From Thalia democratica (Eukaryota), in assembly GCA_965202585.1 (NCBI GenBank), contig OZ241832.1, positions 17,422,001 through 17,486,000 on the forward strand: a DNA stretch of 64,000 bases, in the 5' to 3' direction. Shown one piece after another: positions 21,001 to 45,000 of this stretch. A program made the position numbers. The stretch's first letter is position 1; each line of letters opens with the position of its first letter.

Positions 21001-24000
21001 CAAATTAATAATTAACCAGGCTGTAAAGAAATATGTTACTTGCATGAGCATATTGTTGTAAAACAATCAATTAATTTTCATAATTAGATTACAAATGTTA
21101 AATTTTGCAGAAAATAAATTTAACAACAGAAATATTTTTAAAGCTGCAATAATTTTTGCGCACTTCAACTATCTGTTGAAAAGCATCGATTTCAAAACAA
21201 AATCTAATATGTTTTATTTTTTACGATTCTGCATATAGAAATGAGTATCGAACACAAGTATACTTTTCAAATATAATATATAAAAATAGTGTGCTTTAAA
21301 ACAACTACCCTATAAAACAAAGGGTATTCATACAGTTGATTTTTGAAATAACCAAAGAATTACTTCACTGTAAAACATTTTTTCAGTTTTTAATCAAAAG
21401 TTTCATTGCTTTTCATTCAAACTTTTTTACCTTTAAGATGTGTCCAGAAGAATTTCTTATATCAACATTTAGTTCTCTGTTATGCTTTTAATGATAAGCA
21501 AGACATTAGACAATTGATGATGATATAAAGAACAAAAAAATATCAGCAGCAATCCGATTAACAGGGAGGGACGACAAGCATTATTACGTCATAAAAGCTG
21601 AGCATGGTCTTATAATTGAAAATTAAGGTTATTAAACTGTATGTGAGAGTAATATTATAACAAATAGATAGTTCACTAACAATAATATTTATGAATATTT
21701 ATAGATACATAAAAGTAACCATAAAAATATAAAAAAGAGTACCTTAACCCTTAAAATTACAAGGACAACTCAAAAGTGTGCTTTAGATTAAGACTTTTAC
21801 GTCATTTTATAACGGATTAGAAATTTAAAATGTTGTTTTCTTGACCCTAAAATAACTAATAGCTGTATAAAGTTAATCTTAGAAAACCTTTAAAGACTAA
21901 TACAAAGTGCTTATAATATAATCCAAAAGTATAACAGCTATAAAAACTAAAGCGACCGCCAGCAAAGTTGACATTTGATCCCTGAATGACCGGCGACCAC
22001 ATGTTATTATTGTTTCGTCACATTAAGCTTCATGCTTTTTTATGACGTCACGAACGAGATGTAATCGGTGTATTTTGCTGCAACTTGTCGTGAGAATTAT
22101 GTTAAAGCAGATAAAATGTTCTTGCTTTGCAGCAATTGGAGTTAGTTTTTTAAATAAAGGCAAACATCGAAAAACTATTAATACTAAAATGTATCTAAAT
22201 TCTGATTTGTTTTTAGAAGAACCTATCATTTTTGTAGTTAGTTTGGTTTCAAGCAGGACCTGAAAAAGTCAATTGCTAGTAAAATAAGTGATAAAGTTAT
22301 TTTATTTTGTTTAAAAACAATCTAAAACTTGAGCTACTAAAAATGAAAACAAGTTTTTCAAAAGTGGTTTAAGACTGTAATGATGCAAACATAAACTCAA
22401 AATAATTTGTTTTATAAACTGTTATATTCTTGCTTAAAAGCTAAAACGTAAATCTAGAACTCCTAAATCTTCTCAAACCACATTAATATAGTTGCTAATG
22501 AAACGTTAACTAGTTTTAAACTTTAAAAGAAATAACTTGCTTGTAATCACTTTGATCGAAACTACCTACCGTTATAATAACAACATCTTTATGATGTCAT
22601 AAAGGGTTGTTATCAGTTTGTATTGTGATGAAACATAAACTCTATAATCACCGTTTATTTTGTGAATATTTGTTAAATGAACCTGTCGATATTTTGACAA
22701 CAGTCTTTTTAAAATTGATGAAATTAATTTATCTTCTTTTTTTGAAAACAGTTTGAAAAGCTTAACTTTCACTGAAGGTTTAAAAAATTGTTTTAAATGT
22801 ATTTTTAAATTCCCAACCAAAAAATTCTTAAATATCACGAAAGTACTTTAAACTACTTTGATTATTAAAATAACCAAAAAACCTTGAACAGTTTTCACAC
22901 AAAAAAAATCAGTATTTGCTATTTAATTAATACTGTATAGAAATAAAATTTTTAAAGTTGTTTTGCACGGAAATAACCTTAAACTTGACATATACTTTTC
23001 ATCTCAAGTTTTATATGCGTTACCTATCAAGTTACTTAATGACGGAAATCGAAAGAAGTTTCTTCACTTGTATACACAAAGCAGTTTCAAAACCAAGTCA
23101 CAACTTTCAATTACATTTCCTTATGTTCACTTCTTTAGAAACCTGTTCAAAAAGAAAATGTTATTTAAACAAGACACCACGTTTTTTACAAAGGCGTTAA
23201 TCATTTAAACTTTATTCTGCTTATAAGTTAATGTATTAATACTACTAAACTTTTTAAGAAAAAACAGAAACAAGAAACTTTTTTTTCGAACTTTCGCAGC
23301 TCGTTTACGAAGCTAATAATAAATAATTATTTTTTCATGGTTTTTTATTTGCCTATTAAATAATTTAAAACTTTGACTAAATTTTATTAGAGTTTAATCC
23401 GTTTGTGTAAATTACATATATAGGAATTTCGTAAATTTTCATCGATATGGTTATTTTATTTGTTATTTGACTATTAGACTAAAAATAATTTTAGTATTGT
23501 AAACGATATTCGCAACATGGCAAACATAAACAACATTTTGTTTGATTAATAGCTGTTAAACAGAGTTTGCGTAAAACTTTAAAATATTAAAGATGATCAA
23601 GTGACAGCTTATCTATAACACTTAGTTTGTTCTATAAAGATTTCTTCATTAAAATAATGCTACATAAATAGCTCAAACAATTTTGTTTCCAAAATAAATA
23701 TAACCACAAAGCACTACAAGTTTGTTCGTTTTACTAAAATTGCTTTTAAATATTATTACATTTATATGACTTAAATCTTATATTAGCAGAAAAATAATTA
23801 TTTATATTAGAAACGTTTAGTACGTTTTTTTTTCTGGAAACATTTCATATTTACATAACTGATATAACACTAAGTATTGCAAAAAACATTAGAAAAATAA
23901 TTATAACAATTTTTGTTTACTAAAAATGTTCTTAAAAACTCATTTTTAAATAAAAAGCTAATACTTGTACTAGTAAAAGCAAAAAACATAAACACTTTTA

Positions 24001-42000: not shown

Positions 42001-45000
42001 GAAGGTAAGAATAATATTTTAGTACAAATTTCACTAATTATAGATTCATTATTTTATGGATATATAAAAATAGTCCGTATTTTAGACTTAAAAATTAAAT
42101 AAACGGGGCAACTCAGAAATGTGATTGTGATTAAGACTTTTACGGCACATTGTAACAAATTAAAGTATGAAAAGCATGTTTGGTCGACCCTTAAAAACTT
42201 GTAACTTTGTAGTTAACCTTATAAGTACATAGAGATTATTTAACCTCATACATAAAAAACCGAAAGTATAATCCAAAAGTGTGACAACTACAAAAAACGC
42301 CATAACTTAATACTTTTAAGCATTTTAGCTAGAGCAACCGACAAAAAAGTTTAAATTTGATCTTTACACCACTTATACTTGCCGGCAAACACATGTTGCT
42401 ATTTTGACGTTACATTAAGGCTAAATACTTCATGATGACGTCACACACGAGACGTATGCGGCGTGTTTACTATCTGTATATGTTTTGCTGCATTTTGTCG
42501 TGAGAAATACGTTTGGTTAGATAAAATTTATTGCCTTGCAGAAGCTGGAGGTTGTTGATAAAATAAATAAATCCATCAAAATAATAGTATATTTGAAATA
42601 TGCCTTTAACATCACTTTTTTATAAGTATTATTACATATTGTAGTTTGGTTTAAAGCAAAACCTGAAAAAATAACTGCCAGTAAATCAAATAAAAAAGTG
42701 CTGCTAAAAATACAACAGATCTGTTGTTTAAAACTTCAAATCTATGATCTAAAATTTGTTCTTCTACGCATAATAGTTTATGTAATAATTCATACAATTA
42801 GTAATCATGAAAATTGTCGTAAATTGTTTTATAATTTGCTTACTGCTTAAATTATAAAACTACACTGCCTAAAAATTCATTAAATGAAGTTTAAATACAG
42901 CTAATGAAAATAAAAATTTTTAAGCACTAAATGAAACAACTTGCTTGTAATCACTTTGATTTAAACTACCTACCGCTGTAATTACAACATATTTATGATG
43001 TCACGAAGGATTGTTATTGGTTTATATTGTGATGAAACGAAAAGATTATAATCATTGTTTATTTTGTGCATATTTGTTAAATGAACATGTCACCATTTCA
43101 ACAACAGTCATTTCAGAATTAATGAAAAAGGTTTATCTTTTTTGTTTAAAAACAGTTTGAAAAGATTATCTTTCACTACAGGCTTCAAAAGTTATTCAAG
43201 TGTAAAATAACTATAAAATAATATTAACTATTAGTAAAGTGTTAGTCATTAAGCTACTTTAGTTATTAGAAGAAATGAAAATCCTTGAATAAACTCTAAC
43301 TAACAAATATAACTTGTAGCTAGTTTTATAAAAACTACAAACTACAAAGACATACAATATAAAGTTTTATGAAGCATGCACTAAAACAACTTTGAACTTG
43401 TCACATATATTTTGCATCTCAAATTTTAGTTGTGTTAGCTATCAAATTACTAAAATACGGAAACTAAAAGAAAATTCTTGAGGTATAAAAGTTTTGAAAT
43501 ATTTAATGTCAAACTTCGTACATGAATAAAACATTAAGATATAAAAGTTTCTATACTAATTAATTTTAAAGCTATTTCAAAGAAAAAATCATTTAAAATG
43601 TTTCATAGTTTTTAAGCATTTAAAACTTTTTGATCAATTAACAAAATTTCTGTTGTATAGATTTTTTTTAATAAAAAAAAAGAAAAAAAAAGGACAAACT
43701 TGATTTAATGTTGTATAAAAAGTAAAGCTTTTTATTTAATTTTAAAACATATAACAAAAAAGAACAAGATGATACTTTACTTATACAATAAACTTTCAAA
43801 ACTTTGATTAGAGCTGTTTAAATAATTTTATAACAAGTGTTATCCGTTTGTGTAAGTATAAGATACTCTTAAACTGTAATCGTAATAAATAATAACTATT
43901 CATACGTTTAGTATTGTGAACGACATTTGCATTTTAGAAAACAACACATTATTTTGTTGTATTTAAATCTCGAAATTTAAGTTTATGTAAAACTTAATAA
44001 TGTTAAAGATGATAAAGTGACAGCTTATCTATAACATTTAACTTTTTCTGTAAACAACCTTCGCTAAACTTTAAAAATAGTTTACTTTCAATATTTTTAT
44101 TTGCAGTAAAATATTTCATATCAAGACACAACAAGTTTTATGTGTTTTACTGAGATTACTTTCAAAAATACACTATTAATTTTGAAAAATACTAAAGCTC
44201 GTATTTATAAAAGTGTTTTAATAAGCTGAAAAAATAACTGTATTTTAAAAATTTCTTAAAATTCTCAATTAGCTTCAAATTACCTTTAAATTACTAAGAA
44301 AACTTAATTCGAAATTTGACCAAACAAGTATACAAAAGGTTTTATATTTTTACATAAAATTATCTTATCACAAAATATTTTAAAAGTTTTATCTTTATCA
44401 GCATCAAAATTTAAAATTATACTTTTCGATACAAAATATTAGATTGTTAACCATAAAACTTAAACATTTCAGAAATAATCAAACTTAAACTTTGGTTTTA
44501 ACTTTGAGTTTACTTTATTAATTATACTATTAGAGTTATCAAGTAGTTTTAGTTCATAAATTTATCATTATTTCTAAATTATATAAATACGTGTAAATTT
44601 TTTATCTATTATGTTTTTTTTTTTAAATAATTGTTTAAACAAGTAATATCTGTAACAAAAAAGATTAAAAGATTTAAATACGAGAAAACTGCATTGATTA
44701 TTGTTTTCAAAGACTTTAATAACATTTTTTAACAGTATAGGAAAAAGACGGAAGTATAACTATTGTAATTTAGGTTACGCTTAGCATCTGCTTAATTTCA
44801 ACCAAATTGGTCTATTAAGAGTCGTTTTAAAAATAATTCATATATCAGACAGAACCACTAAAATCATTTGAGTATTCACCTGGATTCAAGATGACATAAA
44901 ACGAGAGAAATCATTAACATAAGAGAATTGAAAGAAAGTAGAAATCAGTGACGCGTAAAATATGAAGCGTATTTGTGATCACTACCTTGTGGTAGAAGTT

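What the first reader, a model, noticed from the sequence alone, without database searches (positions are those of the whole stretch)
21960..42370. Dead gene, living regulatory shell: the pseudogene unit keeps enhancers, splice sites and polyA signal
Seen: coding exons of B are riddled with stops and frameshifts. Yet block B is 123/125 identical to unit 1, the intron-1 element (~30280-30380) is highly conserved, and the exon-1 donor, GTTAGA donor (35078), exon-3 acceptor (37842), X-box pair and AATAAA block all persist. Inference: selection maintains unit 2 as an enhancer reservoir for the flanking genes A/C or as a spliced lncRNA/decoy transcript.
Basis: partly seen in the sequence, partly recalled or inferred. 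Interest (0 to 1): 0.65.

Follow-up and report, generated by a model that had tools for sequence, protein, structure and literature searches.

The report
Dead gene copy keeping distal regulatory islands
The middle copy of a three-copy tandem gene array is a clear pseudogene whose promoter-side elements have decayed with it, while its more distant conserved non-coding islands look as well kept as those of the two living copies, a pattern known from other gene clusters and only moderately supported here.

Summary
The window is an AT-rich (27% GC), non-human, invertebrate-like tandem array of ~20-21 kb units. Each unit carries a two-coding-exon gene for a leucine-rich-repeat membrane protein.

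Unit B (21961-42370) is a non-processed pseudogene. It has 10 premature stops in 433 comparable codons, 9 frameshifts and a ~960-bp exon deletion.

- the 123/125 block;
- the 30280-30380 element (96/101 to A);
- GT at 35078 and AG ending at 37842.

The splice dinucleotides and AATAAA carry no weight, because both are expected by chance. Exon 1 could not be located.

About 15 short non-coding islands are shared by all three units at 80-94% identity, against 43-70% in their flanks. They have no open frames, no codon periodicity, no RNA fold signal and no Rfam match.

In B the picture is mixed:
- The promoter-proximal blocks, including the X-box pair, carry B-specific changes at about the neutral rate.
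- One near-identical A-C block is mostly deleted from B.
- Distal islands show no B-specific excess of substitutions or indels compared with the live units.

The estimated post-death rate in B's islands is about 0.5 of neutral (0.30-0.95).

Continued selection on a subset of distal enhancers is the best reading, but it is not proven. This is a new member of a known kind.

The parts
21961..42370 (+). Unit B of the tandem array (the pseudogene unit)
   Evidence: Self-blastn colinear matches to units A (240-21960) and C (42371-62660). Three-way alignment.
33980..35077 (+). Pseudo-exon 2 of B. The ATG is kept. It has 8 in-register stops, 7 frameshifting deletions and a ~960-bp deletion at 34709/34710 that removes the region matching A 12527-13489.
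   Evidence: The donor-like AAG|GTTAGA has its GT at 35078.
37843..38087 (+). Pseudo-exon 3 of B. The acceptor AG ends at 37842. It has 2 premature stops and 2 one-base frameshifts, and the original TGA is still in place.
25546..25670 (.). It is near-identical between A (2894-3018) and B and is deleted from C.
   Evidence: No RNA fold signal (z = 0.21 and 0.57).
26082..26150 (.). Remnant of block beta. A 3419-3589 and C 46557-46727 are 163/171 identical. About 100 bp of the block are deleted in B.
24530..24777 (.). Two distal conserved islands (24530-24579 and 24658-24777).
   Evidence: Three-way identity >=0.76 in 50-column windows. B-specific changes are 0/50 and 8/119.
25707..25784 (.). Distal conserved island.
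   Evidence: Unique changes A/B/C are 1/3/9 in 77 sites.
26205..26361 (.). Distal conserved island.
   Evidence: Unique changes A/B/C are 14/13/2 in 155 sites.
26986..27546 (.). Two small conserved islands (26986-27036 and 27480-27546).
   Evidence: Unique changes A/B/C are 3/3/5 and 3/8/5.
28843..29024 (+). Conserved island with CCAAT- and TATA-like motifs, the X-box-like ATTTCCATAGCAAC (28968-28981) and a conserved AAG|GTAACT (GT at 28988). It is a candidate promoter plus non-coding exon 1, unverified.
   Evidence: Unique changes A/B/C are 10/14/6 in 181 sites.
29568..29681 (.). Conserved island.
   Evidence: Unique changes A/B/C are 3/6/9 in 113 sites.
30254..30390 (.). It holds a 60-bp exact run with A.
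   Evidence: Unique changes A/B/C are 3/3/10 in 98 sites (30254-30351).
32956..33597 (+). Promoter-proximal conserved blocks (32956-33046 and 33383-33597), including the X-box pair at 33560-33598. In B these are released.
   Evidence: B-specific 49/305 against A 12 and C 20. One search gives the X-box matches.
35476..35525 (.). Intron-2 conserved island.
   Evidence: Unique changes A/B/C are 7/1/1 in 48 sites.
36478..36568 (.). Intron-2 conserved island.
   Evidence: Unique changes A/B/C are 7/6/5 in 91 sites.
37132..37239 (.). Intron-2 conserved island, with a 45-bp exact run shared with both A and C.
   Evidence: Unique changes A/B/C are 5/4/5 in 106 sites.
37460..37578 (.). Intron-2 conserved island.
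   Evidence: Unique changes A/B/C are 1/11/7 in 119 sites.
41764..41950 (.). Conserved island near the end of the unit, about 11.4 kb upstream of the start codon of gene C.
   Evidence: Unique changes A/B/C are 6/9/17 in 185 sites.
11793..17139 (+). Live gene A. Exon 2 is 11793-13858 (donor AACAG|GTAAGA) and exon 3 is 16872-17139.
   Evidence: P0001 is 95% identical to exon 2.
53336..58502 (+). Live gene C. Exon 2 is 53336-55392 (donor CAG|GTTAGA) and exon 3 is 58265-58502.

Best explanation
Unit B is a non-processed (duplicated) pseudogene inside a tandem array of leucine-rich-repeat membrane-protein genes. It inherited the full set of cis-regulatory islands when the unit was duplicated.

After the coding sequence died, three kinds of element were released and have decayed or been deleted: the exons, the promoter-proximal X-box region and one upstream block (beta).

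The distal islands sit upstream, in intron 2 and at the unit's end. They have changed no faster than the same islands in the living units.

The most likely mechanism (inferred, not shown) is that a subset of these distal islands are enhancers that also act on the promoters of the neighbouring live genes A and/or C. That would keep them under some purifying selection. As a class the islands are partly relaxed.
For: SHOWN.
- Pseudogene status.
- 15 three-way islands at 0.80-0.94 pairwise identity, against flanks at 0.43-0.70 in every pair.
- The islands are non-coding. All 9 islands of >=91 columns are closed in all six frames in A and C, and 8 of the 9 in B. There is no 3-periodicity, whereas exon 2 gives 58/44/112.
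- No RNA structure signal: z from -0.86 to 0.94 for the 4 elements folded on both strands. Rfam gave 0 hits at gathering thresholds and only 2 chance-level hits at E<=5.
- ML branch of B in core islands is 0.094, against 0.25 in local flanks. The ratio is 0.37, CI 0.26-0.52.
- Third-copy design: distal islands B 0.131, C 0.178, A 0.186. Exon windows B 0.157, C 0.108, A 0.051. Proximal blocks B 0.21, C 0.064, A 0.112.
- Within B, proximal blocks are more decayed than distal ones: 49/305 against 122/1358 B-specific sites, Fisher p = 5e-4.
- The share of B-specific changes differs between islands (chi2 28.5, 14 df, p = 0.012).
- Indels: exons A 5 / B 12 / C 1; core islands A 7 / B 7 / C 4.
- B has been dead for some time. 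10 premature stops in 433 codons need a neutral divergence d of about 0.13-0.17. At d <= 0.04, P <= 0.005.
- When a live copy was decayed in simulation until its exons matched B's, the re-ascertained islands carried 0.097-0.104 unique changes per site. The observed value in B is 0.0665, and 0 of 60 simulations at the nearest tested d were that low.

FROM THE LITERATURE.
- A pseudogene in a tandem cluster under constraint for a regulatory role has a precedent in human HBBP1 (PMC3622298; abstract read).
Against: - B has the highest island/flank rate ratio of the three units (0.37 against 0.135 and 0.275). It exceeds the A/C mean in 98 of 100 bootstraps.
- In the core set, B's share of unique changes is higher than in neutral sequence (OR 1.46, p = 0.004).
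- The contrast between exons and core islands is only borderline over all exon sites (OR 1.37, p = 0.056). It reaches p = 0.009 for codon positions 1+2.
- The posterior for the post-death rate in the islands is 0.52 of neutral, CI 0.30-0.95, with P(>0.8) = 0.08. The core set was chosen partly on B's own conservation, which biases this estimate downward.
- In A-C-defined windows, B-specific divergence is 0.103 per site in non-coding elements and 0.124 in exons, with overlapping CIs.
- The genealogy is mosaic along the unit, and the live copies show likely conversion in exon 2 (283/293 identical). B's exon branch may therefore be older than its island branches, which would inflate the exon 'excess'.
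- Neutral divergence is near saturation and rests on alignments of 55-65% identical AT-rich DNA.
- There is no outgroup, no transcript data and no chromatin data.
Confidence: 0.5

Rival explanations
1. Plain slow decay with no selection. B's islands were released together with the gene. They are still recognisable only because the post-death divergence (about 0.07-0.2 substitutions per site) is small compared with the age of the duplication (neutral branch about 0.25-0.30). Choosing islands by conservation makes them look better kept than they are.
For: - The posterior for the post-death rate reaches up to 0.95 of neutral.
- With d = 0.045-0.06 and an A-like baseline, the simulated re-ascertained rates have means of 0.072-0.080. 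The range at d = 0.045 is 0.059-0.085, which includes the observed 0.0665; the minimum at d = 0.06 is 0.069.
- B has the highest island/flank ratio of the three units.
- 2 of 17 A-C-defined elements are already lost from B.
- The proximal blocks decay at the neutral rate.
Against: - The stop-codon clock disfavours d <= 0.06 (P = 0.005-0.04).
- Distal islands in B are less diverged than proximal ones in the same unbiased design (p = 5e-4).
- As third copy, B's distal islands are no more diverged than those of the live units.
- There is no excess of B-specific indels in the islands.
Confidence: 0.3
2. Gene conversion. Short tracts copied from the live units A or C keep overwriting B's islands, so their identity reflects concerted evolution and not constraint on B itself.
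For: - Conversion or exchange clearly happens in this array. A and C are 283/293 identical, with a 119-bp exact run, inside exon 2.
- The genealogy is mosaic along the unit.
- The database protein P0001 is A-like up to residue 600 and C-like after it.
- Blocks alpha (123/125 between A and B) and beta (163/171 between A and C) are pair-specific and near-identical.
Against: - Island boundaries coincide in all three pairwise comparisons.
- Flanks are not elevated in pairs that involve B (0.48-0.70).
- 14 of 15 core islands carry B-specific changes, 106 in 1594 sites, similar to C's 97. They are therefore not recent copies.
- B's exons show no sign of repair. The longest A-B exact run in an exon is 31 bp.
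- Conversion confined to islands of 50-190 bp would itself need selection.
Confidence: 0.12
3. B is still transcribed and spliced as a non-coding or decoy RNA, and the conserved splice sites and islands serve that transcript.
For: - The GT at 35078, the AG at 37842 and the ATG at 33980 are intact.
Against: - Chance survival of those bases is 0.13-0.78, depending on the divergence assumed and on how many bases are counted.
- The proximal promoter is the most decayed conserved block in B.
- The acceptor-like site ahead of exon 2 is weakened to GAG.
- The exonic sequence itself decays.
- There is no poly(A) signal at a conserved position.
- The folded islands show no RNA structure signal.
Confidence: 0.05

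Closest known systems
HBBP1 (psi-beta globin pseudogene) in the human beta-globin cluster
   Same: Both are dead members of a tandem gene cluster whose sequence appears constrained for a regulatory role towards neighbouring genes and not for a protein (PMC3622298, abstract read).
   Different: - The globin case rests on population diversity data from 1,092 people and on chromatin-contact studies. This case rests on three paralogous units in one window.
- Here the signal lies in discrete distal islands, and the pseudogene body and its proximal promoter decay.
- The organism is unidentified and the gene family is unrelated.
Conserved non-coding elements and shared or redundant ('shadow') enhancers in gene clusters (general concept, recalled)
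   Same: Both are short islands far more conserved than their flanks. They are non-coding, dense in motif-like sequence, duplicated with the unit, and placed where they could reach neighbouring promoters.
   Different: No activity, accessibility or contact data exist for these islands. Conservation here is measured between paralogous copies within one genome, not between species.
Co-regression of genes and their enhancers after loss of function (for example ocular genes and enhancers in subterranean mammals, PMC5643096; search listing and start of abstract only)
   Same: B's promoter-proximal blocks and the beta block behave this way: they decay or are deleted together with the gene.
   Different: The distal islands in B do not show the matching acceleration.
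RFX/X-box-regulated promoters of ciliary genes (consensus recalled, not taken from a call)
   Same: A pair of 14-mers matching GTHNYYATRRNAAC lies about 400 bp upstream of the start codon in all three units. Matches in the window number 56, against 21.8 +/- 6 expected.
   Different: - RFX binding and expression in ciliated cells are untested.
- Similar 14-mers also lie inside the coding exons.
- In B the second box has lost its match.

Membership tests
Non-processed (duplicated) pseudogene | Homologous to a functional paralogue and carrying disabling mutations | tested here: met
   10 premature stops in 433 comparable codons, 9 frameshifts and a ~960-bp exon deletion. A and C keep open frames.
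Non-processed (duplicated) pseudogene | Keeps the intron, the flanks and its position in the array, so it is not a retrocopy | tested here: met
   The whole 20.4-kb unit is colinear with A and C, including intron 2 and the upstream region.
Cis-regulatory conserved non-coding element | Conserved well above the local neutral level in several copies | tested here: met
   15 islands at 0.80-0.94 identity against 0.43-0.70 in flanks. ML island/flank ratios are 0.135 (A), 0.37 (B) and 0.275 (C).
Cis-regulatory conserved non-coding element | Neither protein-coding nor a known or structured RNA | tested here: met
   No open frames and no periodicity. z-scores from -0.86 to 0.94 for the 4 elements folded on both strands. 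No Rfam or tRNA hits.
Cis-regulatory conserved non-coding element | Enhancer or promoter activity, open chromatin, contact with a target promoter | not testable with these tools
   No expression, accessibility or contact data are available for this unidentified genome.
Selectively maintained regulatory pseudogene locus (HBBP1-like) | Purifying selection acting after the gene's death | tested here: inconclusive
   The post-death rate in the islands is estimated at 0.52 of neutral, CI 0.30-0.95. Distal islands show no B excess. Proximal blocks are released.
Gene-conversion tract | Near identity in one pair that extends beyond the functional element into neutral flanks, with few private changes | tested here: not met
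   This applies to the 15 three-way islands. Flanks are at 0.43-0.70 in all pairs, and B has 106 private changes in 1594 sites. For the pair-specific blocks alpha and beta the test is inconclusive, because the third copy is deleted.
Spliced non-coding transcript | Splice and poly(A) signals retained beyond chance; evidence of transcription | tested here: not met
   Chance retention of the bases is 0.13-0.78. AATAAA is at chance density. There is no positionally conserved signal near the stop. Transcription itself is not testable here.
RFX/X-box promoter | X-box consensus at a conserved promoter-proximal position | tested here: met
   The consensus was recalled from memory. Binding and ciliary expression were not tested. 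B's second box is degraded.

The most novel reading that the evidence does not exclude
The array works as one regulatory unit. Distal enhancers of the dead middle copy are kept by selection because the neighbouring live genes depend on them. The two near-identical upstream blocks (alpha kept in A and B, beta kept in A and C) would then mark a division of promoter or enhancer use between copies. On this reading the death of a gene leaves a working 'enhancer cassette' between its neighbours.
Probability: 0.4. Interest if true: 0.55.

Novelty: new member of a known kind. Interest (0 to 1): 0.35.

Why it matters
If the distal islands of the dead unit are really under selection, this small locus would be a clean natural experiment. 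Within one 20-kb unit, the coding sequence and proximal promoter have been released while the distal elements have not. That separates 'private' from 'shared' regulatory DNA in a tandem array. It also gives concrete deletion targets for testing enhancer sharing between paralogues. If they are not under selection, the locus is an ordinary duplicated pseudogene of intermediate age.

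Tried and rejected
- A global-pair MAFFT run on the three 21-kb units exceeded the time limit. It was replaced by FFT-NS-i and then by chunked L-INS-i between anchors.
- The L-INS-i chunk that spans B's deletion misplaced B 34710-34826 (found), so the statistics were discarded. The chunk was replaced with the first alignment, and all final numbers come from that patched alignment (onward).
- The exon-3 stop count used the wrong frame. It was redone.
- Hidden exons of a second gene: rejected.
- Structured RNA, miRNA or snRNA-like genes: rejected. 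Fold z-scores are near 0 for the 4 elements folded. Rfam gave 0 hits at gathering thresholds and 2 chance-level hits at E = 1.8 and 4.6. There are no tRNAs.
- A repeat or transposon origin for the islands: the self-blastn gave only syntenic, one-per-unit matches.
- A positionally conserved poly(A) signal: none found near the stop codons.
- Parsimony-scale island/flank ratios (A 0.25, B 0.52, C 0.40) were judged biased by saturation in the flanks. They are given here for completeness, and ML values are preferred.
- No related genomic loci could be fetched. Genome contigs holds only bacteria and archaea and was not used.
- No paper supplements were consulted.

Full report
WHAT THE WINDOW IS

The 64-kb window has 27% G+C, no N and a CpG observed/expected ratio of 0.90. 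I do not take it for human. The best named protein relatives are reptile and amphibian podocans, at 30-36% identity over about a third of the query.

Self-comparison shows three colinear tandem units and the start of a fourth at 62660-64000:
- A: 240-21960
- B: 21961-42370
- C: 42371-62660

Units A and C each hold one long open exon (A 11793-13858, C 53336-55392) and a short terminal coding exon (A 16872-17139, C 58265-58502).

Pfam finds LRR_8, LRR_4 and LRR_1 in both proteins. LRRNT in A falls below its cut-off. The sequence itself shows a signal-peptide-like start and one hydrophobic stretch (…VYLALIVLSTLLLLTVIATATYCLF…).

Three transcript-length proteins from unnamed database records are 95%, 72% and 90% identical to A's exon 2. 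All three read straight across the exon 2-exon 3 junction, which supports the splice.

The spliced model was searched exon by exon, and no search was made with the joined sequence. The organism was not identified.

CHECKING THE OBSERVATION

B is dead.
- Exon 2 (33980-35077) has 8 in-register stops in 356 comparable codons, 7 frameshifting deletions and a 963-bp deletion relative to A.
- Exon 3 (37843-38087) has 2 premature stops and 2 one-base frameshifts.

- The 123/125 block is A 2894-3018 = B 25546-25670.
- The 30280-30380 element is 96/101 identical to A, and A-C is 90/99.
- The GT of AAG|GTTAGA is at 35078, and the acceptor AG ends at 37842.

Three of the listed 'survivors' carry no information.
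- The four splice-site bases would survive by chance with probability 0.41-0.78.
- AATAAA occurs at chance density, 334 against 315 +/- 17. It is not positionally conserved near the stop codons.
- The acceptor-like TTTTTCAG ahead of the start codon in A and C reads TTTTTTGAG in B.

Exon 1 could not be located without transcripts.
- One candidate donor, AAG|GTAACT with its GT at B 28988, is conserved in all three units.
- The other lies at the end of a block whose body is deleted in B.

WHAT THE CONSERVED BLOCKS ARE

A three-way alignment was built and patched after a misalignment was found. It yields 15 non-exonic islands of 48-185 aligned sites.
- Pairwise identity inside the islands is 0.80-0.94 in all three pairs. 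Their +/-300-column flanks are at 0.43-0.70.
- Their edges coincide in the three pairwise scans.
- They are not coding. All 9 islands of 91 columns or more are closed in all six frames in A and C, and 8 of the 9 in B. A-C differences show no 3-periodicity, unlike exon 2 (58/44/112).
- They show no RNA-structure signal. This was tested on 4 elements, both strands, with z from -0.86 to 0.94.
- They match no Rfam family at gathering thresholds and no tRNA. At E<=5 there are only 2 chance-level Rfam hits.
- They are dense in motif-like sequence. X-box-like 14-mers sit at syntenic places in all three units: 56 matches at <=1 mismatch against 21.8 +/- 6 expected. The consensus was recalled from memory.

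I read the islands as cis-regulatory modules that were duplicated with the unit.

Two further blocks are pair-specific.
- Alpha is kept in A and B (123/125) and deleted from C.
- Beta is kept in A and C (163/171) and mostly deleted from B.

Lineage-specific changes, patched alignment:

| Class | Sites | A | B | C |
|---|---|---|---|---|
| Core islands | 1594 | 78 | 106 | 97 |
| Exons, all positions | 1328 | 84 | 174 | 125 |
| Exons, codon positions 1+2 | 886 | 38 | 102 | 64 |
| Remaining aligned non-coding | 10429 | 1997 | 1497 | 1600 |

ML branch lengths, HKY+G:

| Class | A | B | C |
|---|---|---|---|
| Core islands | 0.063 | 0.094 | 0.083 |
| Exons | 0.078 | 0.187 | 0.132 |
| Local flanks of the islands | 0.466 | 0.250 | 0.303 |

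The island/flank ratios are 0.135 for A, 0.37 for B (bootstrap CI 0.26-0.52) and 0.275 for C. Over its whole branch, B's islands are therefore far from neutral. B is nevertheless the most relaxed of the three, above the A/C mean in 98 of 100 bootstraps.

B's share of the changes is higher in exons than in islands.
- All exon sites: OR 1.37, p = 0.056.
- Codon positions 1+2: OR 1.65, p = 0.009.

The core set is chosen partly on B's own conservation. To avoid that, I also defined elements from two units only and measured the third.
- Of 17 A-C-defined non-coding elements, 15 are kept in B and 2 are lost.
- C keeps 18 of 19 A-B-defined elements, and A keeps 23 of 25 B-C-defined ones.

ML branch of the third copy:

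| Class | B | C | A |
|---|---|---|---|
| Distal elements | 0.131 | 0.178 | 0.186 |
| Exon windows | 0.157 | 0.108 | 0.051 |
| Promoter-proximal blocks | 0.21 | 0.064 | 0.112 |

B is the worst-kept copy for exons and proximal promoter, but not for distal islands.

Several other results point the same way.
- Within B, proximal blocks carry 49 B-specific changes in 305 sites, about the local neutral 0.134 per site. Distal ones carry 122 in 1358 (Fisher p = 5e-4).
- The share of B-specific changes is heterogeneous among islands (p = 0.012).
- Indels in exons number A 5 (all in-frame), B 12 (9 frameshifting) and C 1. In core islands they number A 7, B 7 and C 4.

HOW LONG HAS B BEEN DEAD?

Premature stops can only accumulate after death. 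Ten stops in 433 codons fit a neutral divergence d of about 0.13-0.17.
- At d <= 0.04, P <= 0.005.
- At d = 0.06, P = 0.005-0.04.

The contrast between codon positions in the ML branches gives my own estimate of about 0.06-0.10. It uses positions 1+2 (B 0.155, A 0.048, C 0.098) against position 3 (B 0.259, A 0.144, C 0.207).

I decayed a live copy in simulation until its exons matched B's, then re-ascertained the islands.
- The simulation predicts 0.097-0.104 unique changes per island site.
- The observed value in B is 0.0665, and 0 of 60 simulations at the nearest tested d were that low.
- With an A-like baseline and d = 0.045, the simulated range (0.059-0.085) includes the observed value.

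A rough posterior combines the stop clock with the ML branches. It puts the post-death rate in B's core islands at 0.52 of neutral (CI 0.30-0.95), with P(<0.3) = 0.02 and P(>0.8) = 0.08. It does not correct for ascertainment.

CONVERSION

Exchange clearly occurs in this array.
- A and C are 283/293 identical, with a 119-bp exact run, in part of exon 2.
- The genealogy changes along the unit.
- One database protein is A-like up to residue 600 and C-like after it.

For the three-way islands, conversion is a poor explanation.
- Flanks in pairs that involve B are not elevated.
- 14 of 15 islands carry private B changes.
- B's exons show no repair.

For alpha and beta, conversion cannot be told from strong constraint, because the third copy is deleted.

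The mosaic genealogy weakens the exon-based comparisons. B's exon branch may be older than its island branches.

VERDICT

The 'regulatory shell' is not intact. The proximal X-box promoter region has been released, the second X-box is degraded, beta is deleted, and most of the palindromic repeats that follow the stop codon in A are absent from B.

The distal islands behave like those of the living units. Continued constraint on a subset of them, most plausibly through enhancer sharing with A and C, is my best explanation at about 0.5. Plain slow decay stands at about 0.3, conversion at about 0.12 and a functional B transcript at about 0.05.

The closest known case is the HBBP1 pseudogene of the human beta-globin cluster (PMC3622298, abstract read). 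The usual expectation that enhancers regress with their gene (PMC5643096, listing and start of abstract only) is met here by the proximal elements only.

WHAT STAYED UNCHECKED

- Orthologous loci, transcripts (exon 1, poly(A) site, whether B is transcribed) and chromatin data.
- The DNA behind the database proteins, because the collections that might hold it were closed.
- No paper supplements were seen.

Noticed in passing
window 12462-12754 and 54002-54294: The two live copies are 283/293 identical here, including a 119-bp exact run. The rest of exon 2 is 74-88% identical. This looks like recent gene conversion between A and C, and it lies inside the part deleted from B.
   Followed up: partly
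window 2894-3018 / 25546-25670 (alpha); 3419-3589 / 46557-46727 (beta): Two near-identical upstream blocks are kept reciprocally. Alpha is in A and B (123/125) and deleted in C. Beta is in A and C (163/171) and mostly deleted in B. Alpha carries TATA-like motifs. Beta ends in CAG|GTTACC followed by a T run. No RNA fold signal was found, and their function is unknown.
   Followed up: partly
protein P0001 compared with window 11793-13856 and 53336-55390: A database protein from an unnamed record is 95-100% identical to A for residues 1-600. After that it is closer to C (0.87-0.88 against 0.58-0.82). This suggests a mosaic paralogue in a close relative and ongoing exchange among copies.
   Followed up: partly
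window 17158-17290, 38098-38115, 58525-58620: Just after the stop codon the 3' region carries GGTTGCTAAGCAAC-like palindromes, which resemble X-boxes. There are several in A, one in B and two or three degenerate ones in C.
   Followed up: no
window 13654-13667 / 34874-34887 / 55188-55201 and 16945-16958 / 37907-37920 / 58329-58342: X-box-like 14-mers also sit at syntenic positions inside coding exons 2 and 3 of all three units.
   Followed up: no
whole units, e.g. B 30900-33400 and 35300-37700 (B-C closest) and B 39600-42300 (A-B closest): Which two units are most alike changes along the unit. The array therefore has a mosaic history of unequal crossing-over or conversion.
   Followed up: partly
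window 62660-64000: This is the start of a fourth unit. It contains an internal direct repeat, 62699-62975 matching 63579-63879 at 74% identity.
   Followed up: no
window 58500-58502: Gene C ends three codons earlier than A (…KW* against …KWYER*) through a TAC->TAA change. The ancestral TGA is still in place downstream.
   Followed up: no
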